Assembly (NCBI GenBank): GCA_015232565.1
Contig: JADFZK010000008.1
Location: 2,580-66,579 of the forward strand
DNA: 64,000 bases
Reading direction: 5' to 3'
Origin: Candidatus Omnitrophota bacterium
GTDB lineage: Bacteria > Omnitrophota > Gorgyraeia > Zapsychrales > Fredricksoniimonadaceae
A program made the translations under genes and the position numbers. The notes under the pieces were generated by a model. It made no database searches. It saw nothing but the letters and a program-made list of their open reading frames with translations, and had not been told where the DNA came from. Shown piece by piece: positions 9,907-49,215 of this stretch; position 1 is the stretch's first letter, and every line of letters starts with the position of its first letter.

Positions 9907-10728
9907 GTGTCGACACTCAGCGCAGATATTCCCGCGTTACGCTCCAAAGCATTGCAATTTCGTAAAGAGATCCTGGAAACACTGGAAACAGCGGGTTCCG
10001 GCCATCCGGGCGGGTCTTTATCGGCGGTAGAGATCTTTGTTGCGCTTTATGGCGCGGTAATGAACCATCGTCCCAAAGAGCCTCTATGGGAAGGCCGCGA
10101 CCGTTTGGTGGTGTCCAAGGGGCATATTTCACCGGCGGTTTACGTCACGCTGGCCAATTTCGGCTATTTTCCAAAAGAAGAGCTTAAAACCTTTCGCAAG
10201 TTCGGCAGTCGTCTGCAGGGGCATGTGACCAAGAAATTGCCGGGAGTCGAATTTAACACCGGTTCCCTGGGGCATGGCCTTTCCTACGTTAACGGGGTGG
10301 CGATGGCCGCCCGGCTGAAGGGCGCTGATTTTAAGGCTTATTGCCTGATGGGTGACGGCGAGATCCAGGAGGGGTCGGTCTGGGAGGCGGCAATGACTGC
10401 GGCTCATTTTAAGCTGGATAATGTTTGTGCGATCGTTGATTATAACAAGGTGCAGGAAAATGGCCTGGTTAGTGACATAAAGGGCTTGGAACCGCTGGGC
10501 GCCAAGTGGCAGTCTTTTGGCTGGAAGGTGATTACCGTGGATGGCAACGATCTTGCACAGTTGTTGCAGGCTTTCGCGGATTTTAAGGCCGTGAAAGGCC
10601 AACCTACGGTAATTATTGCGAATACCCTTAAAGGTAAGGGTGTTCCGTTCATGGAATTAAAGTCCGCCTGGCATGGCAAGGCTCCTAATAAGGAGCAGTT
10701 GGCCGAGGCGTTAAAGGTGCTCTATTAA
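9907..10728 (+). CDS. tktA: Transketolase, N-terminal (TPP-binding) subunit
   Basis: SGHPGGSLSAVEIFVALY and GDGEIQEGSVWEA motifs. 273 aa, so the split form. Confidence 0.85.
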   Translation: MSTLSADIPALRSKALQFRKEILETLETAGSGHPGGSLSAVEIFVALYGAVMNHRPKEPLWEGRDRLVVSKGHISPAVYVTLANFGYFPKEELKTFRKFGSRLQGHVTKKLPGVEFNTGSLGHGLSYVNGVAMAARLKGADFKAYCLMGDGEIQEGSVWEAAMTAAHFKLDNVCAIVDYNKVQENGLVSDIKGLEPLGAKWQSFGWKVITVDGNDLAQLLQAFADFKAVKGQPTVIIANTLKGKGVPFMELKSAWHGKAPNKEQLAEALKVLY

Positions 10729-19500: not shown

Positions 19501-19577
19501 GGGTCGGTAGCTCAGTTTGGGAGAGCGCCTCGTTCGCAATGAGGAGGTCGTGGGTTCGATCCCCATCCGATCCACCA
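19501..19577 (+). tRNA. tRNA-Ala (anticodon CGC)
   Basis: Hand-folded. Acceptor GGGTCGG/CCGATCC contains the Ala identity pair G3:U70. Anticodon loop TTCGCAA. T-arm GGTTCGATCC. Encoded CCA. Confidence 0.8.
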
Positions 19578-19592
19578 TCTATCTTCCACTAG

Positions 19593-19839
19593 AAAAACAC
19601 CTCCTACCAGAAATGGCGGAGGTGTTTTTCCTTTTTAGGGAAGATAGATGGTGCCCCGGAAAGGCTCCGCCCTTTCCGGGGCTCGTTGGTTTATGACTTA
19701 AAATAACTTACCAGAAATGGCGGAGGTGTTTTTCCTTTTTAGGGAAGATAGATGGTGCCCCGGAAAGGCTCCGCCCTTTCCGGGGCTCGTTGGTTCATGA
19801 CTTAAAATCACTAACCAGAAATGGCGGAGGTGTTTTTCA
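19593..19839 (+). repeat. Tandem 104-bp repeat (about 2.25 copies) built from two strong terminator-like hairpins
   Basis: Unit ACCAGAAATGGCGGAGGTGTTTTTCCTTTTTAGGGAAGATAGATGGTGCCCCGGAAAGGCTCCGCCCTTTCCGGGGCTCGTTGGTT[T/C]ATGACTTAAAAT[A/C]ACT[T/A] starts at 19606, 19710 and 19814 (partial). Hairpin 1 AAAACACCTCC/GGAGGTGTTTT is followed by a T-run. Hairpin 2 CCCCGGAAAGG/CCTTTCCGGGG. The sequence just 3' of the tRNA (ATCTATCTTCC) is the reverse complement of GGAAGATAGAT inside each unit. Confidence 0.85.
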
Positions 19840-21390: not shown

Positions 21391-24300
21391 TTGTTACGGC
21401 CAATCGAAAGCGTTATTTCTGCTATAAACTTGTATAGAATGAGAAATTGTGGCAGAAAGGCTTATCATAGTGTATCTTTTATACATATAACAGGTGCTAT
21501 AAGCTTTTTAATAAGAGAATCATTTATGCAATGGTTTGGTTTTACTCACTGCAAGTTGCCCAAGATATTACAGCGCAGAATAATTGCGTCTGGTGTTTTA
21601 TTGACTTTCCTGCTCTCAAACGGGATCGCGCCGGTTCACTATGCCCAGGCCCAGGAAATGTTCCAGCCGGTTGCCGGCCTTGTGCAACTGGGCACGCGGG
21701 TTAGTTTAAGCGCGGCATTTGCTCCGCCGCTTTTAAAAGGCGTTAAGGTTTATCCCGATAATCCTTTTCGGCTCGATTTCATTCTGGATAAAGGCGATGC
21801 AGGGGCCGATCAGGCGCCGCTTGTTGAACAGGGTAAGTCCGGAGCTAACTTGAGAGCGGAGTCAACCCGCCTGATCAAATACTTCCTCGCATCGATCACA
21901 GTCCCCGAGAAAGACCTGTGGGTAAATCTTTCGCCGTATGAGAAAGATCGGATCGTGCCGGATGCTTTTGGCAGAACAGAGATGGGTCGCGATCTTTTGA
22001 GCCAGGACTATTTGCTCAAGCAGATCACTGCATCCGTGATTTATCCGGAAGGCGAGGTGGGCAAGGCCTTCTGGGCCAAAGTTTATGAAGAAGCACGGAA
22101 GCGTTTTGGCACGACCGATATTCCCGTGGATACCTTTAACAAGGTTTGGATCGTGCCAGAGAAGGCCGTGGTTTACGAAAGCCAGGACTCGGCTTATGTG
22201 GTGGAAACCCGCCTGAAAGTAATGCTGGAAGCCGATTATTTAGCGACGTCGACCAACGCAATGCCAACCCGGGGACATGATGCCCCGCCAGCGGATCTAA
22301 ACGAGCGGGGCTTCGTGTCCCCAAGCCGTCTGCCAACCTCTCAACCAATGAATGTGAAAGCGACCCAGGTCTCAACCCCAACGCCAATTGAACTAAGCAA
22401 CCCAAACGAGCAAAACGACATTGCCAAGAACGTCCTGCGCGAAATCGTGATCCCGATCTTGGAAAAAGAAGTTAACGAAGGCAAGAATTTCGCACAGTTA
22501 AGGCAGGTCTACAATTCGCTCATTCTGGCGGTCTGGTACAAGGATAAAATTAAAGAAAGCCTCTTCGGTAAAGCTTACGTCGACCGGAATAAAACCGGCG
22601 GAGTTGACATCGAAGATAAAGCGGCCAAGGATAAGATTTGGGCGCTGTATGTGGAAGCGTTCAGGAAGGGTGCGTATAATTACATCAAGGATGAATTGGA
22701 TCCAGTGACGCAAGAGACTGTGCCGAGAAAATATTTTTCTGGTGGAATGGTTCTTGGCGAGATTAGAAAAGCATATGTGCATGAATCTGTTGTGCGTAAA
22801 AGCCCATCTGATTTGGCAAGTTTATCAGCGAATCGTAATAATAACATAAAGGTCTTGGTTAACCTTGATGCGACAATGAAGAATTTTGATCACGCAGAAA
22901 GATCTTTGGGCTCTATGGATCAAAGCAGTGGAACACATGAATTTCACCAGGAGACTCATAATGCAACAGGAATGATCACAGAGCTTATGGTCGCGAGGCG
23001 GGACGAGACTGAGAAGATCAAGGGACTTATGGCCCGACTAATTAATATGTTGTGGAAGGTTGATCAAACGGAGCGGCAAAATATCGGTCAAACGCTTTCG
23101 GTCCTGTCAAAAGATCCGTTCTATGAAACGATCCTGCGCACAATTGGCGGTGGAAAGATGGTCGGGCTGCTTCGGCTGATCCCGCTCGAAGAAGAATTTA
23201 ATTTTAAGGTGCCCGAATTCTGGGTTGTTCCTTCAAGTTTGTACAAACAAGAAACTATTAATGGTCGAGGAACTGACCACATTAATTATTCCGTAAATTA
23301 TGAAGCCCTTCATCAATTTTTCACAGACTTGCACCTTGTGCCAGGGGCGTATATTGTCAGGAGTTCCTCCGAACTTGAAGATGATCCGAAGTGGATCATG
23401 CGGGGTGGGTACAGATCCGGATTCATTGTCAAACATGATTCTGTTCAAGACCAGAAGCCTGGCGTCGAGTGGAGGGTTGACGATATAGACGGGCGGTTTT
23501 TTTATGAAATGTTTGATGCTGTTATCCGTAGTGCAGGTGAGCGAAAGATATTGGATCTCTCTGGAAAGCCGATCGAGCAACTTGACAGAATGTTCGTTTT
23601 ATTGCAGAAGGCGCCTTCCCGTCGTTTCAAGTTTACTCTTGCTAGTGTTGGGGGCAGGTCCTATCAGCAACAGCTTTACGCACCAGAGGTTTCAGGCGTT
23701 ACCAAGCACCATCCCTACAAGTTAGACCAAGTGGTCTCTGACTATACTCCTGGCCTTAATACCACTGTCCGCGGAGAAAGTCGGACATATATTATTACAG
23801 ACACAAAGACCGGGCGAGAAAGATTTTCCGAAGATGGAATTATTTCGAGGTATGCCAGAGTGCTTGAGGCACTGGAATGTCCTATCCAGAGTGATGGAGC
23901 AAAACACATAAGCATCGACCTGGATGACTTCTCGGTTCCGGCAGATATCACAAGAAGTTTTAATGTGACAAATGAGATGATAAGGAATGAGCATGCAAAA
24001 CTTGGGGGTGTTTTGGCACGATTGGAAATAGAGTTCGGCCCTATGGAACTTGAATGGTCGTTTGAAGATGGAAGGTTATTCATCTATCAGGCTACTCCCA
24101 GCAAACGGCACTGGGAATTATTACGTCTTCCGGTTGAGATAAAGCAAGTGCCAGCGGAAATCCTTGTTGCCTCATCCAAAGATGCTTTTGGTAACAAAGA
24201 ATTCACGGGCCCTCTTGTTTGGGTTAAGGAAGCTCTGTCCTCATCCTTGGCTGGAGTAATTGCAGTGCGGTTTCCGCAAGGATTCATTCTGGTCTGTGAC

Positions 24301-27300
24301 CGTCAGATACTATCGGATAGTACGCATGGCAACAATCCTGATGGAATGACATTCCGAAGGTTGGATACGATCAGGGGTTGGATCGATACCTCTGGTCAGC
24401 CGGTAACGGTTGGCGCCCATTATTCTGATGACCTGACGCGCAAGAAGATCGCCGTTGTTCCTGACAAAACTTTGGACCAAGCGCGTCTTGAGAAATTGTG
24501 TCCTTTGGTTCTGATTAATCGAGACCTCGATGAGGGAATTCGCTTTAGTGAAGGCGATTTTCGTATCGCCGTCAATGCAGTAACTGGTGAAGGCCAGGTG
24601 CATCGCGTTTTGTCATCTGACGGGTCTATGAATGTGCATTCTGATCAGAGCTTGATCGTTCGCGCTGGACTTGACGCCGCTATGAGTAAAGATAGTGGGC
24701 GGCTGAAAGAAATAGCCCATAACAGATTGGTAAATTATGAGCCTCTGCAAGAAGGCCGTAACATGGCGGATAAAGACAACGCGAATTCTGACATGGCGAT
24801 AACGGCTGAAGACTTTGAGACGCGGTTGCGGCAGATATTGGCTATAAAGAAGGATGGAACAAGGTCCGGCGTTGTTGATATTGGGCCAAGGCGTTTTAAG
24901 TATACGATGTCGACAAAGTATCAATCTCCGATCTATTTCCGGGCCGGGGATATTTTTGTCGTTAACGACGAAGATCTCAGGGGAAGGGCTGGTTGGCTTA
25001 ACAGCAAGAGAGTCGCGGCATTGGCAAGTTTGCTTAAGAAGTATCCGAAAGTCATTCGTCTTCATGAAACAATGGCGTCGCCAACCGGGGGTTGGAATAG
25101 TTATGTTCAGGGAGGAACATCGCCCAACTATATAGAGAATACGATCGGGGTCTTGATTTTGATGCAGTCTATTCAGGAGGATATTTCCGGTAAAACCGTT
25201 ATCGATCTTGGATCTCGCAATGCGCTGATTGCGAATGCCGGTTTTCTTCTTGGCGCACAGAAAGTTGTGCTGGTTGAAAATGATGTTCAAAATGTTCGCT
25301 TGCTGCCAGGCGAGGGGAAACAATATGGACTCGATGGATTTGATTCCATTGATTTAATGCGGTTGAATCTTTTGATCAACGGTAACAGTGCGCGGGAATT
25401 GGAGATCTTCGAGAGGGGCCTGGCTGAAGTCCCTCAGGCGGACCGCCGGGGGGCAGTTTTGATATTCAATTTTCCTGATTACGGATATGGTTATCAAAAG
25501 GCTTCCGCTACGAAGACGTACAATCAATATTTGGAACAACTGCGCAAAGGTCAGGGCCGTTCTTTCGGGGCATTGGGGGTAGCGGTTATGGGTAGCTCTA
25601 TGAAAAAGACTGCGCGACCCCGCAGTCTTTTACGCGACAGTTTGAAGGTGTTTGGGAAGTCCGGGATTCTAATCGCCGGCGGCGGGAAAGGGGTCGGGCG
25701 GTATCACGACCAGTTGATCAGTGAAGCTAAGCGGTTAGGTTTGGATCTGGAACTAGAGATTGGCACGGATTGGAGAAAGGAGCCAGACCGATTTCTGAGC
25801 GCGGGCACGGTTATATTTCGTCCCAGCAAGTCATTAGGAAAGAGAACGCTTACGAAGAGTGCCGATATGGTAATGCTTCAGGTTAAGTTGGACGCGGCGC
25901 AAGAGAGTCGGCGGGGGCAGATCGTGACCAGCTATGGAGAAACGTTTGATGACTTTTTCAGGCGGGCCGGTCCCTTCTTGCTGGCAAAGCTGCTGTTTAG
26001 CGATATAAAACAGAAGTACCGTCTGGATGAACTTTACGATCCGCGGTTATGGCAACCGAAAGAAGGAGAACTGACTTACCGGCAAGAATATGCGGCCATG
26101 ACGCTGGATGAACTGGGGCTGGCATTAAAGGCCCTGGGGCGAAAAGGACTTAAGGCATTCTTGGAAGGGAACATAAATCCTTTTCTCCGCTCTCAAGGTT
26201 CAGGCACAGAACTTATAAAGATGTTTATTGATCATTTGGCTAGTGGTCATAGGGACGTGCCAGGGTATTATCTAGTGCATCTTGCGAACACGCTTCCGTA
26301 TGGTTTGCCATTTAGCTATTGGGATCCTCAACAATCTCCGTGGAAAAAGGGTGACAAGAAAGATCTTGAGAATGGCTTGCGCGGGTTTGCTATTTATCAT
26401 GAGATTGCTGAACGCTGGTCCAAGCCCGACCGCGCGATGGCGGCCTCAACGGATATGGCGGCGAAGAATAAGTACTTTGATAATGCATCGCCAGACGTTT
26501 TATCAGGTATTGATTTTGAAGCCGGGAATGAGCCAAAGCATATTGGGGAATTATTTCGAAATAATGGCTCAGAGGATGTGACGGACAAAGAAGAAATCGC
26601 TTTGTTGAATATTTCTAGTGCATTAGACACATATTCTGGCCGGGTAAAGTCGATTATGCCGATGCCTGATGATATGTGGATGGCGTCTTCAAGTGACCAA
26701 AATAAACAACGTGTAACAATGGCCGCGGGGCAGGCGTATTTCGATCTGGTTGAACGAGTGGCCGCTTCCCTGACCGATTTAAATGGCGGCAGACCGATCA
26801 ATATTGATTATCCGGTTGCCGGCACTGATAGCGTTTGGGGGTATTTCACAAATACTCATCGAGTTAATGACCGGGGAGAATCTTTCGAGTGGGGTCATGA
26901 TTTCTGGCAGAGATTTGCGGGTGACAGAAGACTGCAGGGTAAGGAAAGTGTGGCGGATGTTACCAAACCGGGTGTGAATCTTTTTGATGATGGCAGGGCA
27001 GGGGGCAGAGTCTTTGTATTTAAAGGCATGCGTCATTTGCTAGTTAAAACCGAAAGTTACATAAAACAGGTTCTTGCACAGTTGGCTGTTGGCGATAAGA
27101 TTCTAATTCTGTCTAGTATGGATGATGCCCTGGTAGCTGGATTAGCCAGGCAGTACGGATATAGGGAGCTCATTCGTCGTGATGGGCTGTATGCTGTAAC
27201 AACCAACAAATTTGGAATATTGGCTGTTGGTGGAGAGGTCTTCTTGATGCCGGACACTTTTGTTTTGATGGAGAAAGGCTCTGAAGCTGACCTGTCCATG

Positions 27301-30300
27301 CGTACGCATTTTGACCAGAACGCTAGCACGCGCACAAAACCTGATGCATCGATGAATAAAGACAGTGGGCGGCAAGCAAAACAAGTTCCTGACAGTTCGG
27401 CGAGTTTTGCGCTTTTGGGCGATAGCCTTAACCAGGCGGGTGAAACCTCATCTACGATCAGAACAGATTCGGGTCGGGATTATGCTCAATTAAAAACAAA
27501 CCCTGGATCGATCCCGGAGTTGTTTTTCGAGCAGTCGTTCAAGAATGACGAGGTGCGGAAGTTGTGGCGCTATGTTGACACAGAGATCAAGAAGCATGAT
27601 CCATTTATTGAACAAAAAAGTGAGGGGACACTGGTTAAGTCCTATAGCTATATGAATAGAGTTTTGCATTCTATAGATTCCAAGGTTAGCAATGGGGCTG
27701 TACGTTTGGTTAACGATCTACGGCTACTTAAGGCAGATGGGCCAGATTTGGAGCAGAAAGAGCCGTTACGTATTGGAGTGTTAGCTCTGACGGCTAATCC
27801 GCTTAACTGGGCTCACATTATGGCCGTCTTAAAATATATCGATGACGAGAACGCCAATGGCGTTGTCCTTCTTGTGCAGGGAGGTATGCAGTATAAGGAT
27901 CTTCCCGAGAGTGATCGGGTACCGGAAAAGGTGCGGCATGGGCTCGCCAAACGGGTGGTTGGCCATTTGGAGCCGCTTATTTGGTATACAGATGTTGGCA
28001 AGGGTAACGAGAATATCGGCGAGTTTAATGTGCACGAGTTATTGGCTTTGAATCCGAACCGGAAAATTGAACTGGATTATTTGGCTGGTACCGAAACCCG
28101 GGAAAGAACCTATGGTGTAATATGGCATTTTGTCGAGGGAGTAAAGAAGTTTGGCCTCCGTCCTGGTCATACGGTTGCCTTGCGCCTGGTGGCTATTGGT
28201 GAGTTTGGCCGTCAGGTTATGACCAATGAACGGTTGCAGGCGATGCTGGCTGAAGTTAGCGAGGAACAAAATTATTCGGGAGTTCCGTTAAAAGCGAAAG
28301 TGGTGGAGTATCCTGAAGAGCTGGTTATCCATTCTACCGATTATCGCCGGGGAGACCGCAGTCTGGTGCCGTCCGAGATCGACCATTATGCTCAGAGAAT
28401 GGGGTATTATGGTTATCCGCCGCGGGTATTGCGTAAAGGTCGATGGGTCTCGCTTTCTATGGATGAAGCCATTAAGGAACGCATGATGCCTTTGGTGCGT
28501 CAGTTGGCGAAACATATTCAGTCGAAATCCGGGCAAGGTATGGTCGTTACAATTGACGGTAACTCGGCGTCCGGGAAGTCTCTGGTAGGCGAATTGTTAC
28601 GTCAGGAACTCCGTTATAGGGGGCGTTTTGCTGAACTCTGGGGCCTTGACACGAGGCTTAAAGATCATGCTTACAGGCATGCGATCCAAAAAAGAGTAGT
28701 CGGGGAAAGTCTTTCTGCAAATGAGGAGGCATTGCTTTCGGCGAAAGAAAATGAGGGGTTGCGTTCAGGGCAGATCTATACGGAAGAATCCGCGTTCTTT
28801 GATAATGAAGATATCAGGAGTAAATTATCTGCTGTTCACGATTTCTTTCAAAGTGGTCGAGATAGATTTATCTTAAGGGTTGAGGATCCATATGATCAGC
28901 AGACAAAAACAGTATTGAGATCTCCGCTGGAGATCCCTTTGCAAGAAGGATCCGTTTTGATAGTTGAAGGCAAATATGCCCATTTACCAGAATTGCAACA
29001 GTATTCGGACTTAAAGGTCCGTGTGTTGGATGATGAGGATAGTGTGCGCGTTCGCTTTGAGTTGCGAACACGCAAGCAGAGTCCCAATGATGCGGATCGG
29101 CAGTTGGTATTCTTTCGTTGGGGTTTGACGCCTAGTTTTAACGTTTATTCTCAAGCGACACAAAATAGCATCGACGCAGTGTTTGATGTTAGGCCGGATG
29201 ACGCTGATAGTTGGCGACTGGACATTAAGGATTTTGCTGGTAATGCGGGGAAAGGTGGCCCTATTGGCAACGGAGGTGTCGAATTAGCCCGTAACGAGAA
29301 GGGCCTGCAGGCTCGTCATTTGGCTGAAGACTTGGTACATCGTGATTCATTATTAGATGGAGGCACTGATTTATCTAAGAAACCAGGATCGTCTGATAAG
29401 AATTTACATCCTGTGAAGCGTCAAGAAGTGGTTAAACAAATTCAGAAAGCATTCCCTTTCCATTCTAAAAGATTAGCAGGCGATCGTGAGATAGGATTGA
29501 TGGCTATAGGCCGGGAAGATTTTATGTTTCTTGGGCAAGTAACAAACTTTAACAATCATGCTAGTTTGCTTGATGGAACAACATATGCTGTCAAGGCAGA
29601 CGAAGTAAGCCTTCCCTGGATCAAGATAGATTTGATACGTGACAGAATCGGCAATCTGCGAAAAGTGGTATTGGTTGCTCCCAATCTTAGTAATCCACGG
29701 GTACAGATGTCTGAGAATTATCTTCGGGATATCTGGGGAGGAAAACGTGAGGAACTTCCAATAGATAATCTCGAGCCCAGTTATGTTAAAAGATTATCTA
29801 TTCAGATCGGGATGGCCGCCCGTCTTTTACTTGAGGCATGGGGAGAGCGAGAAGCCTGGGAGGTTCCGGTGGAGATTGATTTCCCCGGGTTTATGAATGC
29901 ACAGACGCTTGGTGAAGTGGCAACTGCCGACTTAACAGCCGAAAATGAAGATAATGAAATACATAAACTTTATCCCATGTCCCGTTCCAAAGCCCTTAAA
30001 TACCTAAGGGAAATATTCCGTGGTGGCGATTCTCACGTGATAGGAATGTGTGCTGTTGATGGTGATAATCGTTTTTTGATGGCTTTCGACTTTCCGGTTA
30101 CCAACACACATCATATGTTCTTGTTGTCGGATACGCCTTACGAGGAAGATCATTACGCTTTTATGAATCTGGATCTTACTTTTAAGAATCGTTCAATTTA
30201 CAGCTTGCGTATTATGCCTCCTTTCTACAGAAATCCGCGGGAAGAAATTTCTCCAGATCTTAGAAAGTTTAAGGGTATCACTAACTCATCGCACTTGCCG

Positions 30301-30756
30301 ACGGGAAGAGAGAATAAGAAATTTGAAGCAAAAATAAAGGATGAAGTTGTGATTCTGGCAAGATTATTTCGTGAAGTTATTGAAGGTAAACAGCCAGGAT
30401 TATCCAAAAGGGTTCGAGTTATGACTTCTAGCCGGTATTTCTCTCATCTGATTGGCAAATATCATTCAATTGAGATACCTCTTAATGATATAGCATCTGA
30501 ACGACTGTCCACGGAAGATAAGGCGTCGTTAACTGAAAGCAATAATGGAGGTATTGACCTGACCCGTGAAAATATGGTGCAGCAGGTTCAAGGCGGCCAA
30601 GGCGTTCAGTTTAAAATTGATCCGGCCATGATCCAGCAGTTGCAAAACTCTTCCGGTCTGCATCCGGTCATTATTGATTTTAGCCCGATGACAATATCAG
30701 TGCCGGGGTTTTTAGGTTTGAAAGAGAACCCTGACATAGTAAATCCAGTTCGTTAA
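21391..30756 (+). CDS. Giant (about 3,100 aa) secreted/membrane-anchored multidomain protein with ATP-grasp, MTase-like, NMNAT-like and uridine-kinase-like domains
   Basis: Uninterrupted 9,366-nt ORF. The likely start is Met at 21526 (MQWFGF...), downstream of an AT-rich promoter-like stretch, giving signal peptide ...IIASGVLLTFLLSNGIAPVHYAQAQE. Domains by motif: PEP-utilising-type ATP-grasp (YIVRSSSELEDD ... LEIEFGPMELEWSFEDGRLFIYQATP; nt about 22930-24105). SAM-MTase motif I (KTVIDLGSRNALIANAG; about 25100-25520). Nucleotidyltransferase fold (IGVLALTANPLNWAHIMAV; about 27770-28330). PRK/uridine-kinase P-loop (VVTIDGNSASGKSL ... VLIVEGKYAHL ... KVRVLDDEDSVRVRFELRTRKQ; about 28530-29120). Confidence 0.8.
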   Translation: MLRPIESVISAINLYRMRNCGRKAYHSVSFIHITGAISFLIRESFMQWFGFTHCKLPKILQRRIIASGVLLTFLLSNGIAPVHYAQAQEMFQPVAGLVQLGTRVSLSAAFAPPLLKGVKVYPDNPFRLDFILDKGDAGADQAPLVEQGKSGANLRAESTRLIKYFLASITVPEKDLWVNLSPYEKDRIVPDAFGRTEMGRDLLSQDYLLKQITASVIYPEGEVGKAFWAKVYEEARKRFGTTDIPVDTFNKVWIVPEKAVVYESQDSAYVVETRLKVMLEADYLATSTNAMPTRGHDAPPADLNERGFVSPSRLPTSQPMNVKATQVSTPTPIELSNPNEQNDIAKNVLREIVIPILEKEVNEGKNFAQLRQVYNSLILAVWYKDKIKESLFGKAYVDRNKTGGVDIEDKAAKDKIWALYVEAFRKGAYNYIKDELDPVTQETVPRKYFSGGMVLGEIRKAYVHESVVRKSPSDLASLSANRNNNIKVLVNLDATMKNFDHAERSLGSMDQSSGTHEFHQETHNATGMITELMVARRDETEKIKGLMARLINMLWKVDQTERQNIGQTLSVLSKDPFYETILRTIGGGKMVGLLRLIPLEEEFNFKVPEFWVVPSSLYKQETINGRGTDHINYSVNYEALHQFFTDLHLVPGAYIVRSSSELEDDPKWIMRGGYRSGFIVKHDSVQDQKPGVEWRVDDIDGRFFYEMFDAVIRSAGERKILDLSGKPIEQLDRMFVLLQKAPSRRFKFTLASVGGRSYQQQLYAPEVSGVTKHHPYKLDQVVSDYTPGLNTTVRGESRTYIITDTKTGRERFSEDGIISRYARVLEALECPIQSDGAKHISIDLDDFSVPADITRSFNVTNEMIRNEHAKLGGVLARLEIEFGPMELEWSFEDGRLFIYQATPSKRHWELLRLPVEIKQVPAEILVASSKDAFGNKEFTGPLVWVKEALSSSLAGVIAVRFPQGFILVCDRQILSDSTHGNNPDGMTFRRLDTIRGWIDTSGQPVTVGAHYSDDLTRKKIAVVPDKTLDQARLEKLCPLVLINRDLDEGIRFSEGDFRIAVNAVTGEGQVHRVLSSDGSMNVHSDQSLIVRAGLDAAMSKDSGRLKEIAHNRLVNYEPLQEGRNMADKDNANSDMAITAEDFETRLRQILAIKKDGTRSGVVDIGPRRFKYTMSTKYQSPIYFRAGDIFVVNDEDLRGRAGWLNSKRVAALASLLKKYPKVIRLHETMASPTGGWNSYVQGGTSPNYIENTIGVLILMQSIQEDISGKTVIDLGSRNALIANAGFLLGAQKVVLVENDVQNVRLLPGEGKQYGLDGFDSIDLMRLNLLINGNSARELEIFERGLAEVPQADRRGAVLIFNFPDYGYGYQKASATKTYNQYLEQLRKGQGRSFGALGVAVMGSSMKKTARPRSLLRDSLKVFGKSGILIAGGGKGVGRYHDQLISEAKRLGLDLELEIGTDWRKEPDRFLSAGTVIFRPSKSLGKRTLTKSADMVMLQVKLDAAQESRRGQIVTSYGETFDDFFRRAGPFLLAKLLFSDIKQKYRLDELYDPRLWQPKEGELTYRQEYAAMTLDELGLALKALGRKGLKAFLEGNINPFLRSQGSGTELIKMFIDHLASGHRDVPGYYLVHLANTLPYGLPFSYWDPQQSPWKKGDKKDLENGLRGFAIYHEIAERWSKPDRAMAASTDMAAKNKYFDNASPDVLSGIDFEAGNEPKHIGELFRNNGSEDVTDKEEIALLNISSALDTYSGRVKSIMPMPDDMWMASSSDQNKQRVTMAAGQAYFDLVERVAASLTDLNGGRPINIDYPVAGTDSVWGYFTNTHRVNDRGESFEWGHDFWQRFAGDRRLQGKESVADVTKPGVNLFDDGRAGGRVFVFKGMRHLLVKTESYIKQVLAQLAVGDKILILSSMDDALVAGLARQYGYRELIRRDGLYAVTTNKFGILAVGGEVFLMPDTFVLMEKGSEADLSMRTHFDQNASTRTKPDASMNKDSGRQAKQVPDSSASFALLGDSLNQAGETSSTIRTDSGRDYAQLKTNPGSIPELFFEQSFKNDEVRKLWRYVDTEIKKHDPFIEQKSEGTLVKSYSYMNRVLHSIDSKVSNGAVRLVNDLRLLKADGPDLEQKEPLRIGVLALTANPLNWAHIMAVLKYIDDENANGVVLLVQGGMQYKDLPESDRVPEKVRHGLAKRVVGHLEPLIWYTDVGKGNENIGEFNVHELLALNPNRKIELDYLAGTETRERTYGVIWHFVEGVKKFGLRPGHTVALRLVAIGEFGRQVMTNERLQAMLAEVSEEQNYSGVPLKAKVVEYPEELVIHSTDYRRGDRSLVPSEIDHYAQRMGYYGYPPRVLRKGRWVSLSMDEAIKERMMPLVRQLAKHIQSKSGQGMVVTIDGNSASGKSLVGELLRQELRYRGRFAELWGLDTRLKDHAYRHAIQKRVVGESLSANEEALLSAKENEGLRSGQIYTEESAFFDNEDIRSKLSAVHDFFQSGRDRFILRVEDPYDQQTKTVLRSPLEIPLQEGSVLIVEGKYAHLPELQQYSDLKVRVLDDEDSVRVRFELRTRKQSPNDADRQLVFFRWGLTPSFNVYSQATQNSIDAVFDVRPDDADSWRLDIKDFAGNAGKGGPIGNGGVELARNEKGLQARHLAEDLVHRDSLLDGGTDLSKKPGSSDKNLHPVKRQEVVKQIQKAFPFHSKRLAGDREIGLMAIGREDFMFLGQVTNFNNHASLLDGTTYAVKADEVSLPWIKIDLIRDRIGNLRKVVLVAPNLSNPRVQMSENYLRDIWGGKREELPIDNLEPSYVKRLSIQIGMAARLLLEAWGEREAWEVPVEIDFPGFMNAQTLGEVATADLTAENEDNEIHKLYPMSRSKALKYLREIFRGGDSHVIGMCAVDGDNRFLMAFDFPVTNTHHMFLLSDTPYEEDHYAFMNLDLTFKNRSIYSLRIMPPFYRNPREEISPDLRKFKGITNSSHLPTGRENKKFEAKIKDEVVILARLFREVIEGKQPGLSKRVRVMTSSRYFSHLIGKYHSIEIPLNDIASERLSTEDKASLTESNNGGIDLTRENMVQQVQGGQGVQFKIDPAMIQQLQNSSGLHPVIIDFSPMTISVPGFLGLKENPDIVNPVR

Positions 30757-30896: not shown

Positions 30897-31190
30897 GTGA
30901 GGTATAATTTTGAGTGGGATACTGTTAAGGCGCGGACCAATCAAATAAAACACGGCATTGGTTTTGAGGAGTCTTGCGCAGTGTTCAAGGATCCTCGCGC
31001 GTTGACATTGTTTGATTCCGTACATGACGAGATCGAAGACCGATGGGTTACGATGGGCATGGTCGGGGCGCTTTGTGTTTGTGTGGTACATCATACATTC
31101 AGAGAAACACAGGGAAACGTTGTTATGATACGAATATTCTCTGCCCGTAAGGCGACAAGAAAAGAACAACACCAATATTGGGGGAAATAA
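30897..31190 (+). CDS. brnT: BrnT-family toxin (DUF497 ribonuclease toxin)
   Basis: MRYNFEWDTVKARTNQIKHGIGFEESCAVFKDP matches the BrnT N-terminal signature (FEWD..K...N..KHG..FEEA..VF.DP). 97 aa. Confidence 0.75.
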   Translation: MRYNFEWDTVKARTNQIKHGIGFEESCAVFKDPRALTLFDSVHDEIEDRWVTMGMVGALCVCVVHHTFRETQGNVVMIRIFSARKATRKEQHQYWGK

Positions 31191-31195
31191 ATATC

Positions 31196-31396
31196 ATGAA
31201 AAAAGAATACGATTTCTCAACAGCGCAAAGAGGAAAATTCTTTAACAAGAATGCAGACATGAATTTGCCGGTATATCTGGATCGGGCGTCTTCCTCATTT
31301 GTTGTTAGATTGGCTCGCCAGCGTAAGAAGGATATTTCCTCAGTAGTTAATGATTTGATCAGAGGCGATATTCAATTAGCCCGGGTAATGCAGTAA
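31196..31396 (+). CDS. brnA: BrnA-family antitoxin
   Basis: 66-aa ORF starting 6 nt after the brnT stop (ORF-track start 31178 trimmed to Met 31196). Short basic protein with an RHH-like C-terminal stretch. Positional partner of BrnT. Confidence 0.6.
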   Translation: MKKEYDFSTAQRGKFFNKNADMNLPVYLDRASSSFVVRLARQRKKDISSVVNDLIRGDIQLARVMQ

Positions 31397-37428: not shown

Positions 37429-38289
37429 ATGAACAAGAACATTGAAGCCTTCCTTAAGCACATGGAGGTTGAAAAGAATTATTCTGTTCATACGATCCTT
37501 AATTACCGGCTTGACCTTGAGGAGTTCTTTACTTTTCTCGGGCATGATCGGGTGGCCGAAGTTGAGTATCCGACCCTGAGGCGTTTTTTGGCGGAATTGC
37601 GCTCTCATGAGCTCAGGCCGCGCAGTGTATCGCGTAAACTTTCGGCCTTGCGGTCTTTCTTCCGGTATTTGCAAAGGGAGGGCTTTATTGCCAAGAATCC
37701 GGCGGCCCTGATAGTAACACCTAAGCTGGACAAGGTCCTGCCGCATTTTATGACGGAGGACGACACCTTGAAGCTGGTGGATTCTTCTTTCGCCGATGAG
37801 AGTTCGGATCTGCGGGATAAGGCGCTTTTTGAGACCATGTATTCAACTGGCATCCGGGTCAGCGAGCTGGTGGGTTTAAGCCAGGACGATATTGATCTGG
37901 TTGGCAATATGATAAAGGTTTTTGGCAAGGGCAAGAAAGAACGTATTGTGCCGATCGGCCAGCCGGCGGTCACTGCGATAGCGGCGTATTTAAAAGCGCG
38001 TCCTTTTAAGAATCAAGCGGTGTTCCTCAACCGTTCGGGCACCAGGCTGTCGGCGCGTAGTGTGCGCAATATCATCAATAAACACATTCACAAGGCGGCT
38101 ATCCAGCAGAAGGTACATCCGCATATGTTCCGGCATTCGTTTGCCACTCATATGCTTAATCGCGGGGCGGACCTGCGGAGTGTCCAGGAGCTGTTGGGTC
38201 ATGTGAATTTATCGACTACCCAGATCTACACTCATTTGACTACCGAGAAGCTCAAGAGTGTTTACGACAAGGCGCATCCGAGGGCATAG
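37429..38289 (+). CDS. xerC: Tyrosine site-specific recombinase XerC/XerD (CodV-like)
   Basis: Catalytic RHRY context (HPHMFRHSFATHMLNRGADLRSVQELLGHVNLSTTQIYTHL). Sits directly after topA as in Firmicute topA-gid-codV synteny. Stop codon TAG forms the first bases of the left inverted repeat. Confidence 0.8.
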   Translation: MNKNIEAFLKHMEVEKNYSVHTILNYRLDLEEFFTFLGHDRVAEVEYPTLRRFLAELRSHELRPRSVSRKLSALRSFFRYLQREGFIAKNPAALIVTPKLDKVLPHFMTEDDTLKLVDSSFADESSDLRDKALFETMYSTGIRVSELVGLSQDDIDLVGNMIKVFGKGKKERIVPIGQPAVTAIAAYLKARPFKNQAVFLNRSGTRLSARSVRNIINKHIHKAAIQQKVHPHMFRHSFATHMLNRGADLRSVQELLGHVNLSTTQIYTHLTTEKLKSVYDKAHPRA

Positions 38290-38440
38290 TGTGGTGATTC
38301 ATATATTTTTTTACATTTAAATCACCACACTGGAGCAATGGAGCAATCGAGAATAGAGAAATAATAAAACATTTAGGCTCCATTGCGGTCAATTTTCGAT
38401 TTTCTAATGCTCTTCAAATGTAAAGAAGCGTTAGACTCAA
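38287..38440. repeat. Left copy of ~155-bp inverted repeat pair (IR-L) with outer 12-bp stem-loop
   Basis: Reverse complement of 49216..49371 at about 90% identity (hand alignment; about 10 mismatches or indels). Contains perfect stem AGTGTGGTGATT/AATCACCACACT (loop about 20 nt) and direct repeat GGAGCAATGGAGCAAT. Confidence 0.85.
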
Positions 38441-38455
38441 CACATTAGGGGACAT

Positions 38456-45881: not shown

Positions 45882-45902
45882 ATTTCAAATGGCGGAGAAA
45901 GA

Positions 45903-49192: not shown

Positions 49193-49215
49193 GCAGTTAT
49201 TTCTTACTAGTGGAG

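What the first reader, a model, noticed from the sequence alone, without database searches (positions are those of the whole stretch)
21391..30756. About 3,100-aa secreted polyprotein combining four nucleotide-handling enzyme folds
A single uninterrupted 9.4-kb ORF follows an AT-rich promoter-like stretch and starts (probably at 21526) with a signal peptide. Recognisable by eye are four modules: a PEP-utilising-type ATP-grasp nucleotide-binding domain (VRSSSELEDD ... EIEFGPMELEWSFEDGRLFIYQATP), a class-I SAM methyltransferase-like motif I (VIDLGSRNALIANAG), an NMNAT-like nucleotidyltransferase fold (ALTANPLNWAHIMAV), and a PRK/uridine-kinase-type P-loop kinase (TIDGNSASGKSL ... KVRVLDDEDSVRVRFELRTRK). 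The last two resemble the NadR arrangement of adenylyltransferase plus riboside kinase. About 500 N-terminal and 500 C-terminal residues have no assignable fold. I know of no described protein family with this combination. A secreted or envelope-anchored enzyme array acting on nucleotides, NAD or nucleosides could be an effector directed at another cell, or an extracytoplasmic salvage or modification machine. Its neighbourhood (LemA fusion upstream, BrnTA downstream, tRNA-Ala plus repeats upstream) looks accessory rather than core.
Basis: partly seen in the sequence, partly recalled or inferred. Interest (0 to 1): 0.85.

Follow-up and report, generated by a model that had tools for sequence, protein, structure and literature searches.

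The report
Secreted enzyme-carrier protein of Omnitrophota
This 3,076-residue protein is real and does carry several nucleotide-handling enzymes, but it is one member of a very large, apparently undescribed Omnitrophota family in which a constant signal peptide, head module and tail module bracket an interchangeable load of enzymes that normally work inside cells.

Summary
The ORF is real. NCBI annotates the same 3,076-aa product (start 21526) in a Candidatus Omnitrophica MAG.

The combination is not the main point. The protein belongs to a family with thousands of members and many paralogues per genome, seen almost only in Omnitrophota-type MAGs. Members share a Sec signal peptide, a ~360-aa N-module with no known fold, and a ~65-aa C-module at the extreme C-terminus. 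Between them lies 5 to more than 4,000 aa of unrelated cargo.

The N- and C-modules always co-occur and co-vary, and a cargo-less member exists. Cysteine is about ten-fold depleted, yet radical-SAM members keep their CxxxCxxC.

My best reading (inferred): an exported carrier with enzymes inserted in a loop, acting outside the producer's cytoplasm, probably in a host or prey cell. It resembles Archaeovorin-type giants in content and MARTX toxins in layout.

The parts
21526..30756 (+). Complete gene, 3,076 aa plus stop (all aa numbers below count from the ATG at 21526)
   Evidence: ORF list and translation. Identical to NCBI HQL20_02940, 3,076 aa.
21526..21651 (+). Sec-type signal peptide, aa 1-42 (KLPKILQRR / IIASGVLLTFLL / ...YAQA|QE)
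   Evidence: Read directly from the sequence. It is the only segment with TM-like hydrophobicity in the protein. An equivalent region is present in 118 of 120 homologues. No dedicated signal-peptide predictor was available.
21655..22854 (+). Conserved N-module (aa ~44-443; the last conserved motif is YFSGG at 403-407)
22262..22378 (+). In-frame palindromic insertion inside the N-module (hairpin GGGGACA..GCCCCGC / GCGGGGC..TGTCCCC), translated as ...PTRGHDAPPADLNERGFVSPSRLPTSQPMNVKATQVSTP
   Evidence: RNA MFE is -38.7 kcal/mol (z -5.2). Copies at 80-90% DNA identity occur in three other loci, always inside N-module coding sequence and at different insertion points.
23107..24135 (+). PEP-synthase/PPDK_N-type ATP-grasp nucleotide-binding domain (aa ~528-870; GGK544, SSS613-615, E618, D619, ELEWS 841-845)
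   Evidence: Two collinear sub-threshold PPDK_N hits. In the 1.84-billion-protein library the region matches 510-610-aa proteins at E 1e-14 to 1e-5, and those proteins score 65-104 bits on PF01326. Profile A4 hits PEP synthase 2ols at E 2e-13 and 5fbs/5hv1, deposited as 'phosphoenolpyruvate synthase', at about 1e-8. I recognise 5fbs/5hv1 from my own knowledge as rifampin phosphotransferase.
24136..24606 (+). Domain following the ATP-grasp, with an invariant His (GAHYSD, H965). Candidate phospho-His swivel domain.
   Evidence: Aligned along its full length with the stand-alone homologues. A444 and H445 of alignment A4 are invariant. There is no Pfam PF00391 hit, so the swivel assignment is an inference.
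24772..25773 (+). Class-I (Rossmann) methyltransferase-fold domain (aa 1083-1416; VIDLGSRN 1225-1232, E1251, NFPDYG 1315-1320)
   Evidence: Homologues down to E 3e-40 in the representative library. Profile A3 hits PH1948, Ta1320, METTL5, PRMTs and PrmA at E 5e-5 to 1e-3 over motifs I-II. Weak hits to methyltransferase domains of family members P0028, P0042 and P0032.
25774..26445 (+). Unassigned cargo domain A (aa ~1417-1640)
   Evidence: Only a weak match to P0068 3431-3516. No Pfam or PDB hit.
26551..27315 (+). Unassigned cargo domain B (aa ~1676-1930), shared with family member P0044 (669-951)
   Evidence: BLAST 4e-11 and phmmer 1.5e-10. Profile A7 finds nothing in the PDB.
27556..28485 (+). 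NadD/NMNAT-like nucleotidyltransferase (aa 2011-2320, core 2077-2314; N-W-A-H 2094-2097 in place of (H/T)xGH; HSTDYR 2269-2274 in place of ISSTxxR)
   Evidence: Homologous to P0040 1463-1687 (E 5e-16). That region of P0040 passes the Pfam CTP_transf_like cut-off (31.1 against 21 bits). Profile A1 hits nicotinate-nucleotide adenylyltransferase 8aih at E 1e-3, in two collinear pieces that include the ISST region.
28498..29190 (+). Uridine-kinase/PRK-like P-loop kinase (aa 2325-2555; Walker A GNSASGKS 2345-2352)
   Evidence: Sub-threshold AAA_16, cytidylate-kinase and APS-kinase hits on the P-loop. Profile A1 aligns with uridine-cytidine kinase 2 over its full length (E 0.08) and with 1rz3 (E 2e-3). 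The block 2011-2555 is contiguous in P0011 as well.
29383..30495 (+). Two tandem copies of an unassigned family-specific domain (aa ~2620-2830 and ~2840-2990)
   Evidence: Both copies match the same region of P0047, and the first also matches P0036. No PDB match. AF2 confidence is low.
30535..30729 (+). Conserved C-module (aa 3004-3068: GGIDLT..., VQFKIDPAMIQQLQN, GLHPVIIDFSPM, FLG), followed by an 8-residue tail and the stop
   Evidence: Present at the extreme C-terminus of all 120 proteins and of 60 of the 66 3'-complete genomic ORFs. Consensus. In AF2 it is mostly coil plus one helix, pLDDT 65-81.

Best explanation
SHOWN. The gene encodes one member of a large paralogous family found in Omnitrophota. 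Every member is built the same way:
- a Sec-type signal peptide;
- a constant ~360-aa N-module ending in ...RKYFSGG;
- a variable insert;
- a constant ~65-aa C-module beginning GGIDL..., which ends the protein.

In this member the insert is about 2,600 aa and holds at least eight domains:
- a PEP-synthase-type ATP-grasp;
- a conserved-His domain;
- a class-I methyltransferase fold;
- two unassigned domains;
- a NadD-like adenylyltransferase;
- a uridine-kinase-like kinase;
- a duplicated unassigned domain.

INFERRED.
1. The N- and C-modules together form one discontinuous 'carrier' unit. The cargo sits in a loop between two Gly-Gly hinges.
2. The carrier is exported through Sec and provides the common step, which could be envelope attachment, outer-membrane passage or entry into a target cell.
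3. The cargo enzymes are catalytically competent and need ATP, SAM and nucleotides. They therefore act in a cytoplasm-like compartment other than the producer's own, most probably that of the host or prey cell these ultra-small bacteria attach to.
4. In this member the load would phosphorylate, methylate and adenylylate or phosphorylate nucleotide- or NAD-related small molecules, or other substrates, in the target.
5. The conserved ends also offer homology arms through which cargo cassettes could be exchanged between paralogues.
For: Constant ends, variable middle. Only aa 17-440 and 2990-3076 of the query are shared with the 119 homologues. Averaged across the family, fewer than 1 of 119 relatives shares any given cargo position. 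Pairs whose N-modules are 85-89% identical typically share 0-50 aa of roughly 2,000 aa of cargo.

Coupling of the two modules. In 1.26 Mb of Omnitrophota loci there are 103 ORFs with an N-module and 84 with a C-module, and 74 have both. Of the ten C-only ORFs, four are cut by the locus edge, and the other six each lie downstream of an N-module ORF in the same locus, which I read as fragments of interrupted genes. N- and C-module identities co-vary (Mantel r 0.68; 0 of 999 permutations reach it).

Cargo-less member. P0195 (438 aa) is signal peptide + N-module + short linker + C-module. It occurs on 5 contigs from several samples.

C-module fold. On its own the C-module does not model as a globular domain.

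Export. A signal-peptide-like N-terminus is present in 118 of 120 homologues. The query has no internal TM segment. Cysteine is 0.16% in the query and 0.12% at the family median, against 1.39% in the other ORFs of the window. Stand-alone homologues of the same enzymes have 0.4-2% Cys.

Enzymes kept active.
- In the four radical-SAM members examined, the CxxxCxxC motif (CxxCCxxC in one) accounts for most of the very few cysteines.
- In the query the family-invariant GGK, SSSxxED and His965 of the ATP-grasp module are intact.
- So are the DxGSRN, Glu and NFPxxG positions of the methyltransferase fold, the Walker A motif, and the STxxR motif.

Fold assignments.

Cytoplasm-type cargo across the family includes radical SAM/B12, SNF2 helicases, receiver domains, HATPase, GGDEF, NUDIX, MutS and DnaJ.

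Diderm producer. LPS core genes lie in the same window.

Background from the literature. Omnitrophota are proposed host-dependent, predatory or parasitic nanobacteria (PMC10066038). Their giant proteins carry the same domain repertoire on predicted extracytoplasmic regions (10.1101/2023.11.21.568195; 10.64898/2026.06.07.730766).
Against: - No experiment or localisation data exists for any member.
- Signal-peptide cleavage and topology were judged by eye and hydrophobicity only.
- No secretion-system or partner gene is linked to the family, so the route beyond the inner membrane is unknown.
- The physical N-C interaction is not demonstrated. The co-variation could be shared phylogeny alone.
- The N-module model is only moderately confident (pLDDT 63.6), so 'no known fold' is provisional.
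- Export of Fe-S or B12 enzymes through Sec, followed by cofactor loading in a foreign cell, has no precedent that I know of.
- Several fold assignments rest on E-values of 1e-3 to 0.1. Substrates are unknown.
Confidence: 0.55

Rival explanations
1. Retained surface or periplasmic enzyme coat. The carrier modules anchor the proteins to the producer's own envelope or to each other. The enzymes would then work in an enlarged periplasm or at the contact zone, for example on scavenged nucleotides and cofactors, and are never delivered into another cell.
For: - A signal peptide is present and the producer is diderm.
- Highly conserved modules shared by many paralogues would suit a common anchor or lattice.
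- A 'coat' role was proposed for the V. archaeovorus giant protein (PMC10066038).
- Some short members carry glycoside-hydrolase-type cargo such as beta-mannanase, and a cellulase gene lies next to family members in L082.
Against: - Most cargo needs ATP, SAM, GTP, DNA or Fe-S/B12 chemistry that is not known to be available outside a cytoplasm.
- There is no lipobox, no TM anchor and no known cell-wall-binding domain.
Confidence: 0.25
2. Cytoplasmic-face membrane-tethered multi-enzyme. The N-terminal hydrophobic segment is an uncleaved anchor, the bulk of the protein stays in the producer's cytoplasm, and the enzymes work in ordinary metabolism.
For: - The cargo consists of typical cytoplasmic enzymes with catalytic residues kept.
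- About half of the Omnitrophota proteins of 10 kAA or more are predicted TM-only with cytoplasmic bulk (10.64898/2026.06.07.730766).
Against: - Basic residues precede the hydrophobic core and a family-wide small-x-small site (YAQA|Q) follows it, which predicts an exported, cleaved protein.
- The ten-fold cysteine depletion is specific to the carrier-borne copies and absent from stand-alone homologues. A cytoplasmic location does not explain that.
Confidence: 0.08
3. Polymorphic toxin for competition between bacteria. The constant ends are trafficking domains and the variable cargo consists of toxins that are neutralised by immunity proteins.
For: - The constant/variable architecture, many paralogues per genome and cassette-like cargo turnover fit this model.
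- Some members carry Zeta-toxin, ART, AvrB, PLD or deaminase domains.
Against: - No immunity-like gene is consistently adjacent, and the context is housekeeping.
- The variable part is central rather than C-terminal, and usually consists of several anabolic or house-keeping-type enzymes rather than one toxin.
- No PADLOC or conflict-system hit was found for this cargo.
Confidence: 0.05
4. Assembly chimera or decaying pseudogene. The long ORF joins unrelated genes or is no longer functional.
For: - The exact protein is known from a single contig of a single short-read MAG.
- Some family loci are visibly frameshifted.
Against: - 9.2 kb without a stop.
- It begins and ends with a matching N- and C-module pair, as in 74 other genes.
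- The NadD-like+kinase block is contiguous in an independent protein.
- Catalytic motifs are intact.
- Composition is even along the gene.
Confidence: 0.02

Closest known systems
Archaeovorin-type / 'multi-enzyme metabolic cluster' giant proteins of Omnitrophota (West-Roberts et al. 2023, bioRxiv 10.1101/2023.11.21.568195; Nielsen & Lui 2026, bioRxiv 10.64898/2026.06.07.730766)
   Same: - Same phylum.
- Signal peptide present.
- Strings of cytoplasm-type enzyme domains placed on predicted extracytoplasmic regions: methyltransferases, NUDIX, HAD, radical SAM, PPDK_N, HATPase, HEAT.
- Function unknown, proposed to act on host or prey.
   Different: - Those proteins are 10,000-147,000 aa with tens to hundreds of TM helices. 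This family spans 438 to about 4,900 aa, and the query has no internal TM segment.
- The constant N- and C-modules, the cargo-less member, the cysteine purge and the [DN]xAM linkers are not mentioned in the papers I could read.
- Whether the giants carry the same modules was not tested.
MARTX toxins (own knowledge)
   Same: - Multi-thousand-residue secreted proteins.
- Conserved N- and C-terminal regions flank a strain-variable array of enzymatic effector domains.
- Effector sets are reshuffled by recombination.
- The effectors act in a target-cell cytosol.
   Different: MARTX ends are glycine-rich RTX-type repeats exported by a type I system, and an internal cysteine protease domain releases the effectors. 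Here there is a Sec signal peptide, no repeats and no recognisable protease. The resemblance is in layout only.
Polyvalent proteins of phages and conjugative elements (Iyer et al. 2017, own knowledge)
   Same: Very large proteins that string together methyltransferase, SNF2 helicase, ART, peptidase and nucleotide-metabolising domains in ever-changing combinations. Several family members carry SNF2+methyltransferase or ART-PolyVal domains.
   Different: - Polyvalent proteins have no signal peptide and no constant end modules, and they travel with DNA.
- This family is chromosomal and almost absent from viral contigs (3 loci in 2.9 million contigs).
NadR (HTH + NMN adenylyltransferase + ribosylnicotinamide kinase; own knowledge)
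   Same: An adenylyltransferase of the (H/T)xGH / ISSTxxR superfamily immediately followed by a P-loop kinase (aa 2011-2555).
   Different: - No HTH domain.
- The kinase aligns with uridine-cytidine kinase/PRK, not with the NadR kinase.
- The first His of the HxGH motif is Asn and the Gly is Ala.
- The block is embedded in an exported 3,076-aa protein.
PEP synthase / rifampin phosphotransferase-type enzymes (ATP-grasp + swivelling phospho-His domain). PDB 2ols, and 5fbs and 5hv1; the latter two are deposited as 'phosphoenolpyruvate synthase' and I identify them as rifampin phosphotransferase from my own knowledge.
   Same: An ATP-grasp domain with GGK and SSSxxED motifs, followed by a domain with an invariant His.
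   Different: - The His-domain is not recognised by Pfam PF00391.
- No third (substrate) domain is identified.
- The nearest relatives are uncharacterised 510-610-aa proteins.
C-terminal sorting or secretion tags (T9SS CTD, PEP-CTERM, LPXTG, GlyGly-CTERM; own knowledge)
   Same: A short conserved module at the very C-terminus of signal-peptide-bearing proteins that have unrelated functional domains.
   Different: - No TM helix plus basic tail, and no beta-sandwich prediction.
- The module never occurs without the specific N-module. That argues for one split carrier rather than a general tag.

Membership tests
Omnitrophota N/C-module carrier family (unnamed; defined here) | N-terminal Sec-type signal peptide | tested here: met
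   Basic n-region, hydrophobic core and AQA|Q site. Same layout in 118 of 120 homologues. Judged by heuristic only, not by a dedicated predictor.
Omnitrophota N/C-module carrier family (unnamed; defined here) | Conserved N-module directly after the signal peptide | tested here: met
   aa 52-443 match the family HMM. Identity to 119 homologues is 47-72%.
Omnitrophota N/C-module carrier family (unnamed; defined here) | Conserved C-module as the last ~70 residues | tested here: met
   aa 3004-3068 match at E 9.5e-30, 8 residues before the stop. Consensus.
Omnitrophota N/C-module carrier family (unnamed; defined here) | Strong cysteine depletion | tested here: met
   5 Cys in 3,076 aa (0.16%). The family median is 0.12% and the other ORFs in the window have 1.39%.
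PPDK_N / PEP-utilising ATP-grasp (Pfam PF01326) | Score above the Pfam gathering threshold | tested here: not met
   Best score 20.2 bits against a cut-off of 27. Two collinear pieces.
PPDK_N / PEP-utilising ATP-grasp (Pfam PF01326) | Significant homology to bona fide members and conserved nucleotide-binding motifs | tested here: met
   E 1e-14 to 1e-5 to proteins that score 65-104 bits on PF01326. Profile against PEP synthase 2ols gives E 2e-13. GGK544, SSS613-615 and E618/D619 are invariant.
PPDK_N / PEP-utilising ATP-grasp (Pfam PF01326) | Phospho-His swivel domain (PF00391) | tested here: inconclusive
   No PF00391 hit. A following domain with invariant His965 is conserved in all the homologues.
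Class I SAM-dependent methyltransferase | Motif I (E/DxGxGxG) and an acidic residue at the end of beta-2 | tested here: inconclusive
   Motif I is the variant D-L-G-S-R-N, invariant in the subfamily. Glu1251 is conserved after beta-2. SAM binding was not testable.
Class I SAM-dependent methyltransferase | Profile similarity to solved methyltransferases | tested here: met
   Profile A3 hits 1wy7 (5e-5), 1ne2, METTL5, PRMT1/8 and PrmA (up to 1.5e-3) over motifs I-II. Pfam PrmA scores only 10.8 bits, below its cut-off.
Nucleotidyltransferase, NadD/NMNAT type (Pfam PF01467 CTP_transf_like) | (H/T)xGH motif | tested here: inconclusive
   The query has N-W-A-H (2094-2097). Relatives have N-W-G-H and T-W-G-H. 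The last His is kept; the first position and the Gly vary.
Nucleotidyltransferase, NadD/NMNAT type (Pfam PF01467 CTP_transf_like) | ISSTxxR motif and overall homology | tested here: met
   I-H-S-T-D-Y-R at 2268-2274. Homology to P0040, whose region passes PF01467 (31.1 against 21 bits). Profile A1 against NadD 8aih gives E 1e-3. The query alone gives no Pfam hit.
PRK / uridine kinase P-loop kinases | Walker A motif and full-length similarity | tested here: inconclusive
   Walker A GNSASGKS is present. Profile A1 aligns with UCK2 over residues 8-207 but at E 0.08, and with 1rz3 at E 2e-3 over the P-loop region only.
NadR | HTH + NMNAT + ribosylnicotinamide kinase (AAA_28-type) | tested here: not met
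   No HTH domain and no AAA_28 or RNK hit. The kinase resembles UCK/PRK. Only the domain order is shared.
MARTX toxins | RTX-type Gly-rich repeats at both ends, a cysteine protease domain, a T1SS signal | tested here: not met
   No such Pfam hits. A Sec signal peptide is present instead.
Archaeovorin-type giant proteins | Omnitrophota origin with a multi-enzyme repertoire on exported regions | tested here: met
   and papers 10.1101/2023.11.21.568195 and 10.64898/2026.06.07.730766.
Archaeovorin-type giant proteins | Giant size (above 10-30 kAA) with many TM helices | tested here: not met
   3,076 aa and no internal TM-like segment.
Polymorphic toxin systems | Variable C-terminal toxin with an adjacent cognate immunity gene | tested here: not met
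   The variable part is central. The downstream genes are a BrnT/BrnA pair and housekeeping genes. No conserved neighbour in other loci.

The most novel reading that the evidence does not exclude
Omnitrophota possess a phylum-wide, insertion-tolerant protein-delivery scaffold. It would be a single carrier domain split into an N-terminal and a C-terminal part, able to accept anything from 5 to more than 4,000 residues of folded, cofactor-dependent cytoplasmic enzymes (even radical-SAM/B12 enzymes) in one loop. The carrier would take them through Sec and onward into a host or prey cell, with dozens of interchangeable cargo cassettes per genome swapped by recombination at the constant ends. That would be a new kind of effector-delivery platform, and a molecular handle on how these uncultivated nanobacteria exploit other cells.
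Probability: 0.3. Interest if true: 0.85.

Novelty: new variant of a known kind. Interest (0 to 1): 0.62.

Why it matters
Omnitrophota are widespread, ultra-small and almost entirely uncultivated. They are suspected of living off other cells, but the molecules involved are unknown. The literature has focused on their record-size proteins, whose length and lack of conservation make them hard to study.

This family offers a tractable version of the same puzzle, for four reasons:
- the module pair is sharply defined and can be searched for;
- a 438-aa cargo-less form is small enough for structural and localisation work;
- there are thousands of natural 'carrier + cargo' variants;
- there is an internal clue that the proteins are both exported and enzymatically active, because cysteine is purged everywhere except at catalytic sites.

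If the carrier does move cytoplasm-type enzymes out of the cell and into another, it would explain why these reduced genomes invest so much coding capacity in such proteins. It would also be a new delivery principle. If it does not, the family still poses an unanswered question: what ATP-, SAM- and Fe-S-dependent enzymes are doing behind a signal peptide.

Tried and rejected
- Direct Pfam and NCBIfam scans, on the whole protein and on ten overlapping 420-aa pieces, gave only sub-threshold hits. PADLOC found nothing.
- A word-index homologue search with the cargo alone (aa 441-2975) returned only the protein itself. The cargo is too divergent for that tool. The exhaustive HMMER search of aa 500-1699 was needed.
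- I first thought the family had a minimum length of about 1,700 aa. This is an artefact. The homologue tool lists only proteins of roughly 0.55-1.95 times the query length (compare). Genomic ORFs range from 357 to 3,491 aa.
The C-terminal model alone is of low confidence except for the C-module, so I ran no fold search on it.
- Domains B and C1/C2: small profiles found nothing in the PDB.
- An internal second C-module at aa 2582-2598 (GGVELARNEKGLQ) scores E 0.14 and is not significant.
- No second family member lies in the window. No conserved gene neighbourhood was found.
- Phage origin is rejected: 3 loci in 2.9 million viral contigs.
- I considered whether [DN]xAM could be a relic of fused start codons with their ribosome-binding sites. 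The codons do not fit a Shine-Dalgarno sequence, so I dropped the idea.
- Rfam finds nothing real at the palindromic insert.

Full report
THE OBSERVATION

The + strand carries one uninterrupted ORF from 21391 to 30756 (translation). The ATG at 21526 gives a 3,076-aa product. It is identical to the NCBI protein HQL20_02940 ('hypothetical protein') of a Candidatus Omnitrophica MAG. Homologues align from residue ~11-17 onward, so 21526 is the likely start.

The N-terminus reads KLPKILQRR / IIASGVLLTFLL / SNGIAPVHYAQA|QE, which looks like a classical Sec signal peptide. It is the only segment of the protein with membrane-like hydrophobicity.

The wider context, however, is ordinary chromosome: Nramp, Usp, CvfB, PurU, an HD-GYP/GAF protein, topoisomerase I and LPS core genes. 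Almost all genes are on one strand and the GC skew is steady.

THE FOUR FOLDS

Direct Pfam and NCBIfam hits are all sub-threshold. I therefore used homologues and profiles.

(i) ATP-grasp, aa 528-1027.
- An exhaustive HMMER search of 1.84 billion representatives matches this region, at E 1e-14 to 1e-5, to stand-alone 510-610-aa proteins.
- Those proteins score 65-104 bits on PPDK_N.
- A profile of this group hits PEP synthase 2ols at E 2e-13. It also hits 5fbs/5hv1 at about 1e-8; these are deposited as 'phosphoenolpyruvate synthase', and I recognise them as rifampin phosphotransferase from my own knowledge.
- GGK544, SSS613-615 and E618/D619 are invariant.
- The roughly 160 aa that follow contain an invariant His (GAHYSD, H965). 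This is a candidate phospho-His domain, but Pfam does not recognise it.

(ii) Methyltransferase fold, aa 1083-1416.
- Homologues reach E 3e-40.
- Their profile hits class-I methyltransferases (PH1948, Ta1320, METTL5, PRMTs, PrmA) at E 5e-5 to 1e-3.
- Motif I is the variant DLGSRN. There is a conserved Glu after beta-2 and an NFPDYG motif that resembles NPPF/Y.

(iii) Nucleotidyltransferase, aa 2077-2314.
- The region is homologous (E 5e-16) to a stretch of P0040 that passes Pfam CTP_transf_like.
- A three-sequence profile hits NadD 8aih at E 1e-3, including the ISST region.
- The motifs are N-W-A-H and H-S-T-D-Y-R.

(iv) Kinase, aa 2325-2555.
- An intact Walker A (GNSASGKS) is present.
- In profile the region aligns with uridine-cytidine kinase 2 over its whole length (E 0.08) and with 1rz3 (E 2e-3). 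This is the weakest of the four assignments.

Homologue P0011 carries blocks (iii) and (iv) contiguously at 29% identity over 545 aa. That is independent evidence that they belong in one polypeptide.

The rest of the cargo stays unassigned: aa 1417-1640, aa 1676-1930 (shared with P0044), and two tandem copies of one domain at aa 2620-2830 and 2840-2990 (shared with P0047 and P0036).

WHAT THE PROTEIN BELONGS TO

The first homologue search returned 1,619 significant proteins. Every one of the 119 listed shares only about 13% of the query. Mapping the alignments shows two constant pieces, aa ~17-440 and aa ~2990-3076, and essentially nothing in between.

The same holds across the family. The first ~350-400 aa and the last ~70 aa are shared by nearly all members, while any cargo position is shared on average with fewer than 1 of 119 relatives.

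The C-module consensus is GGIDLT-x5-L-x4-G-x2-I-x-F-x2-DPAML-x-QLQNA-x-GF-x-PVII-x-I-x-P-...-FLG. It ends the protein.

Of the 79 loci kept, most records are titled Candidatus Omnitrophica/Omnitrophota, about 17 'uncultured Planctomycetales' and one Candidatus Elulimicrobium sp. Several loci often come from one genome. Four paralogues come from this very MAG (HQL20_02940, _03360, _04675, _05630).

Genomic ORFs range from 357 to 3,491 aa, with a median near 1,100. The apparent 1,700-aa floor is a length filter of the search tool (compare). The family is almost absent from viral contigs and has no conserved gene neighbourhood, although tandem paralogues occur.

Pfam domains recorded for members include radical SAM + B12-binding, NUDIX, many methyltransferases, SNF2 helicases, PPDK_N, HAD, histidine phosphatase, PRTase, ABC1 kinase + M48 peptidase, ATP-grasp, HATPase, receiver, GGDEF, GNAT, HEAT, WD40, DnaJ, MutS, ART, Zeta toxin and a few glycoside hydrolases.

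EVIDENCE THAT THE TWO ENDS ARE ONE FUNCTIONAL UNIT

- In 1.26 Mb of fetched Omnitrophota DNA, 103 ORFs carry an N-module and 84 a C-module, and 74 carry both. Of the ten C-only ORFs, four are cut by the locus edge. The other six each lie downstream of an N-module ORF in the same locus, which I read as fragments of interrupted genes.
- Pairwise identities of N-modules (43-89%) and C-modules (17-93%) are correlated (Mantel r 0.68; 0 of 999 permutations reach it). Pairs with 85-89% identical N-modules usually share no cargo at all.
- A 438-aa member, P0195, consists of signal peptide, N-module, about 16 linker residues and C-module. It was assembled on five contigs from several samples.
- The cargo therefore sits between ...RKYFSGG and GGIDL..., two glycine hinges.
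- The C-module modelled on its own is coil plus one helix (DPAMIQQLQ) at pLDDT 65-81, not a globular domain.
- The N-module model is mixed alpha/beta (pLDDT 63.6) and ends in a lower-confidence beta-hairpin. It has no neighbour among solved structures.

I infer a discontinuous carrier domain with cargo inserted in a loop. This is not shown.

EVIDENCE ON LOCATION AND ACTIVITY

A signal-peptide-like N-terminus, typically ending ...YAQ(A/S/E), is present in 118 of 120 members.

Cysteine is 0.16% in the query and 0.12% at the family median, against 1.39% in the other ORFs of the window. Stand-alone homologues of the same enzyme families have 0.4-2%. The depletion therefore goes with the carrier, not with the enzyme type.

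In the four radical-SAM members examined, the cluster-binding CxxxCxxC motif (CxxCCxxC in P0011) accounts for most of the very few cysteines. P0003, for example, has Cys at 7, 671, 675, 678 and 1978. P0062 has the motif at 1071/1075/1078 and 3326/3330/3333 plus three other Cys.

I read this in two parts. First, there is selection against cysteine, as expected for proteins that cross membranes unfolded or live in an oxidising compartment. Second, there is selection to keep catalysis. The invariant catalytic motifs in the query's own domains point the same way.

The producer has LPS genes and is therefore diderm. A step beyond Sec would be needed to leave the cell, and no candidate machinery is linked to the family.

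MOST LIKELY MECHANISM AND ITS RIVALS

Enzymes that need ATP, SAM, GTP, DNA or Fe-S/B12 chemistry, placed behind a conserved signal peptide and kept catalytically intact, are easiest to understand if they work in another cell's cytoplasm. That fits the proposed host-dependent or predatory lifestyle of Omnitrophota (PMC10066038). It also fits the published reading of their giant proteins, which carry the same domain repertoire on predicted extracytoplasmic stretches (10.1101/2023.11.21.568195; 10.64898/2026.06.07.730766).

I put this 'exported carrier delivering active enzymes outside the producer cytoplasm, probably into a target cell' at 0.55. The family architecture itself is close to certain. 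The rivals are:
- a retained surface or periplasmic enzyme coat (0.25);
- a cytoplasmic-face tethered enzyme (0.08), which is contradicted by the signal-peptide geometry and the cysteine purge;
- a polymorphic toxin with immunity genes (0.05), for which no immunity genes or toxin-type layout were found;
- an assembly artefact (0.02).

For this member, the cargo suggests ATP-driven phosphotransfer through His965, a methylation step, and an adenylyltransferase/kinase pair acting on nucleotide- or NAD-type substrates. Substrates cannot be named from sequence.

COMPARISON WITH WHAT IS KNOWN

In content the protein is a small relative of the Archaeovorin-type or 'multi-enzyme' giants. It is 10-50 times shorter and lacks TM helices. 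The constant N/C modules are not mentioned in the papers I could read.

In layout it recalls MARTX toxins (constant ends, swappable central effectors) and the polyvalent proteins of mobile elements. It fails their defining features, which are RTX repeats, T1SS and a protease domain for the former, and carriage by a phage or conjugative element for the latter.

The adenylyltransferase+kinase block has the NadR order but is not a NadR. The C-module is not a sortase- or exosortase-type or T9SS-type tag.

I rate it a new variant of a known kind.

SIDE OBSERVATIONS

A ~115-nt palindromic element sits in frame inside the N-module (22262-22378). It recurs at other positions in N-modules of other genomes, reminiscent of Rickettsia palindromic elements.

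The tetrapeptide D-x-A-M is 15-fold over-represented in the family (567 observed against 37 expected). [DN]xAM marks inter-domain linkers. In P0044 it occurs about every 255-320 aa, at each domain boundary. In the query the corresponding sites are at 486 (the D-A-T-M variant, found by eye), 1032/1050, 1635 and 1922/1940. It also starts the C-module helix. This could be a processing site or a structural linker.

An 11-kb LPS-core gene block (38.3-49.4 kb) is bracketed by ~160-nt inverted repeats next to a tyrosine recombinase gene.

Noticed in passing
window 22262-22378 (inside the N-module coding region); also L017 ~10100-10260, L018 ~535-695, L063 ~6610-6770: A ~115-nt element sits in frame. 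It has a perfect 7+7/7+7 hairpin (GGGGACAtgatGCCCCGC ... GCGGGGCttcgTGTCCCC; RNA MFE -38.7 kcal/mol, z -5.2), flanked by TGCCAACC direct repeats. It recurs at 80-90% DNA identity in three other genomes, always inside an N-module and at different insertion points. It looks like a mobile palindromic element that inserts into coding sequence, as Rickettsia palindromic elements do. No Rfam family matches.
   Followed up: partly
query aa 486, 1032, 1050, 1635, 1922, 1940, 3032 (window ~22981, 24619, 24673, 26428, 27289, 27343, 30619); P0044 aa 344, 376, 656, 974, 1253, 1508, 1763, 1795: The tetrapeptide D-x-A-M is 15-fold over-represented in the family (567 observed, 37 expected). [DN]xAM falls between domains, never inside the Pfam domains I checked, and also begins the C-module helix (DPAML). 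Two query linkers are near-duplicates (D-x-S-M...DQ...D-A-x-M-x-KDSGR). It could be a polyprotein processing site or a repeated docking or linker element. Some members (P0011, P0032) lack it entirely.
   Followed up: partly
window 37429-49369: Inverted repeats of about 160 nt (38287-38448 and 49207-49369, 82-95% complementary) bracket an 11-kb block of LPS core genes: WaaA, LpxK, an LpxL-like fusion, GT4 and four GT9 heptosyltransferases. A XerC/D-type tyrosine recombinase gene lies immediately upstream (37429-38289). This may be an invertible or mobile LPS-core cassette.
   Followed up: partly
window 19501-19812: tRNA-Ala(CGC) at 19501-19577 is followed by two tandem copies of a 104-nt unit (19605-19812, 98% identical). 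This could be an integration scar or a repeat of unknown role.
   Followed up: no
L082 1968-7425 (ENA BUCK21-1 scaffold_519); window 30897-31396: The cargo-less family member P0195 (438 aa) is followed directly by a second family member (1,110 aa, 1 Cys) and preceded by a BrnT/BrnA toxin-antitoxin pair. A BrnT/BrnA pair also lies immediately downstream of the gene studied here. With only two loci, this may be coincidence.
   Followed up: partly
query aa 2620-2830 and 2840-2990 (window 29383-30495): There is an internal tandem duplication of an unassigned ~150-200-aa domain with conserved His, Pro and Arg positions. The domain recurs in family members P0047 and P0036. It has no PDB or Pfam match.
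   Followed up: partly
proteins P0123, P0124, P0126, P0133, P0138: Other large signal-peptide-bearing, cysteine-poor proteins (803-5,528 aa) carry the same methyltransferase-fold cargo domain behind different or very divergent N-termini. P0123 has a distant N-module-like start, 'LRGIKIDPQDPFKLNFLIDEGD'. Further carrier families may exist.
   Followed up: no
tool behaviour: The listed hits of the search for homologous proteins fell within about 0.55-1.95 times the query length (1,698-4,875 aa for a 3,076-aa query; 341-831 aa for a 427-aa query). Length distributions taken from that tool are therefore biased.
   Followed up: yes
window 1-64000: GC skew is positive in every 2-kb bin and nearly all long ORFs are on the + strand. 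This fits a single leading-strand replichore segment. The studied gene has a slightly lower GC content (0.46-0.49) and a less negative AT skew than its surroundings.
   Followed up: no
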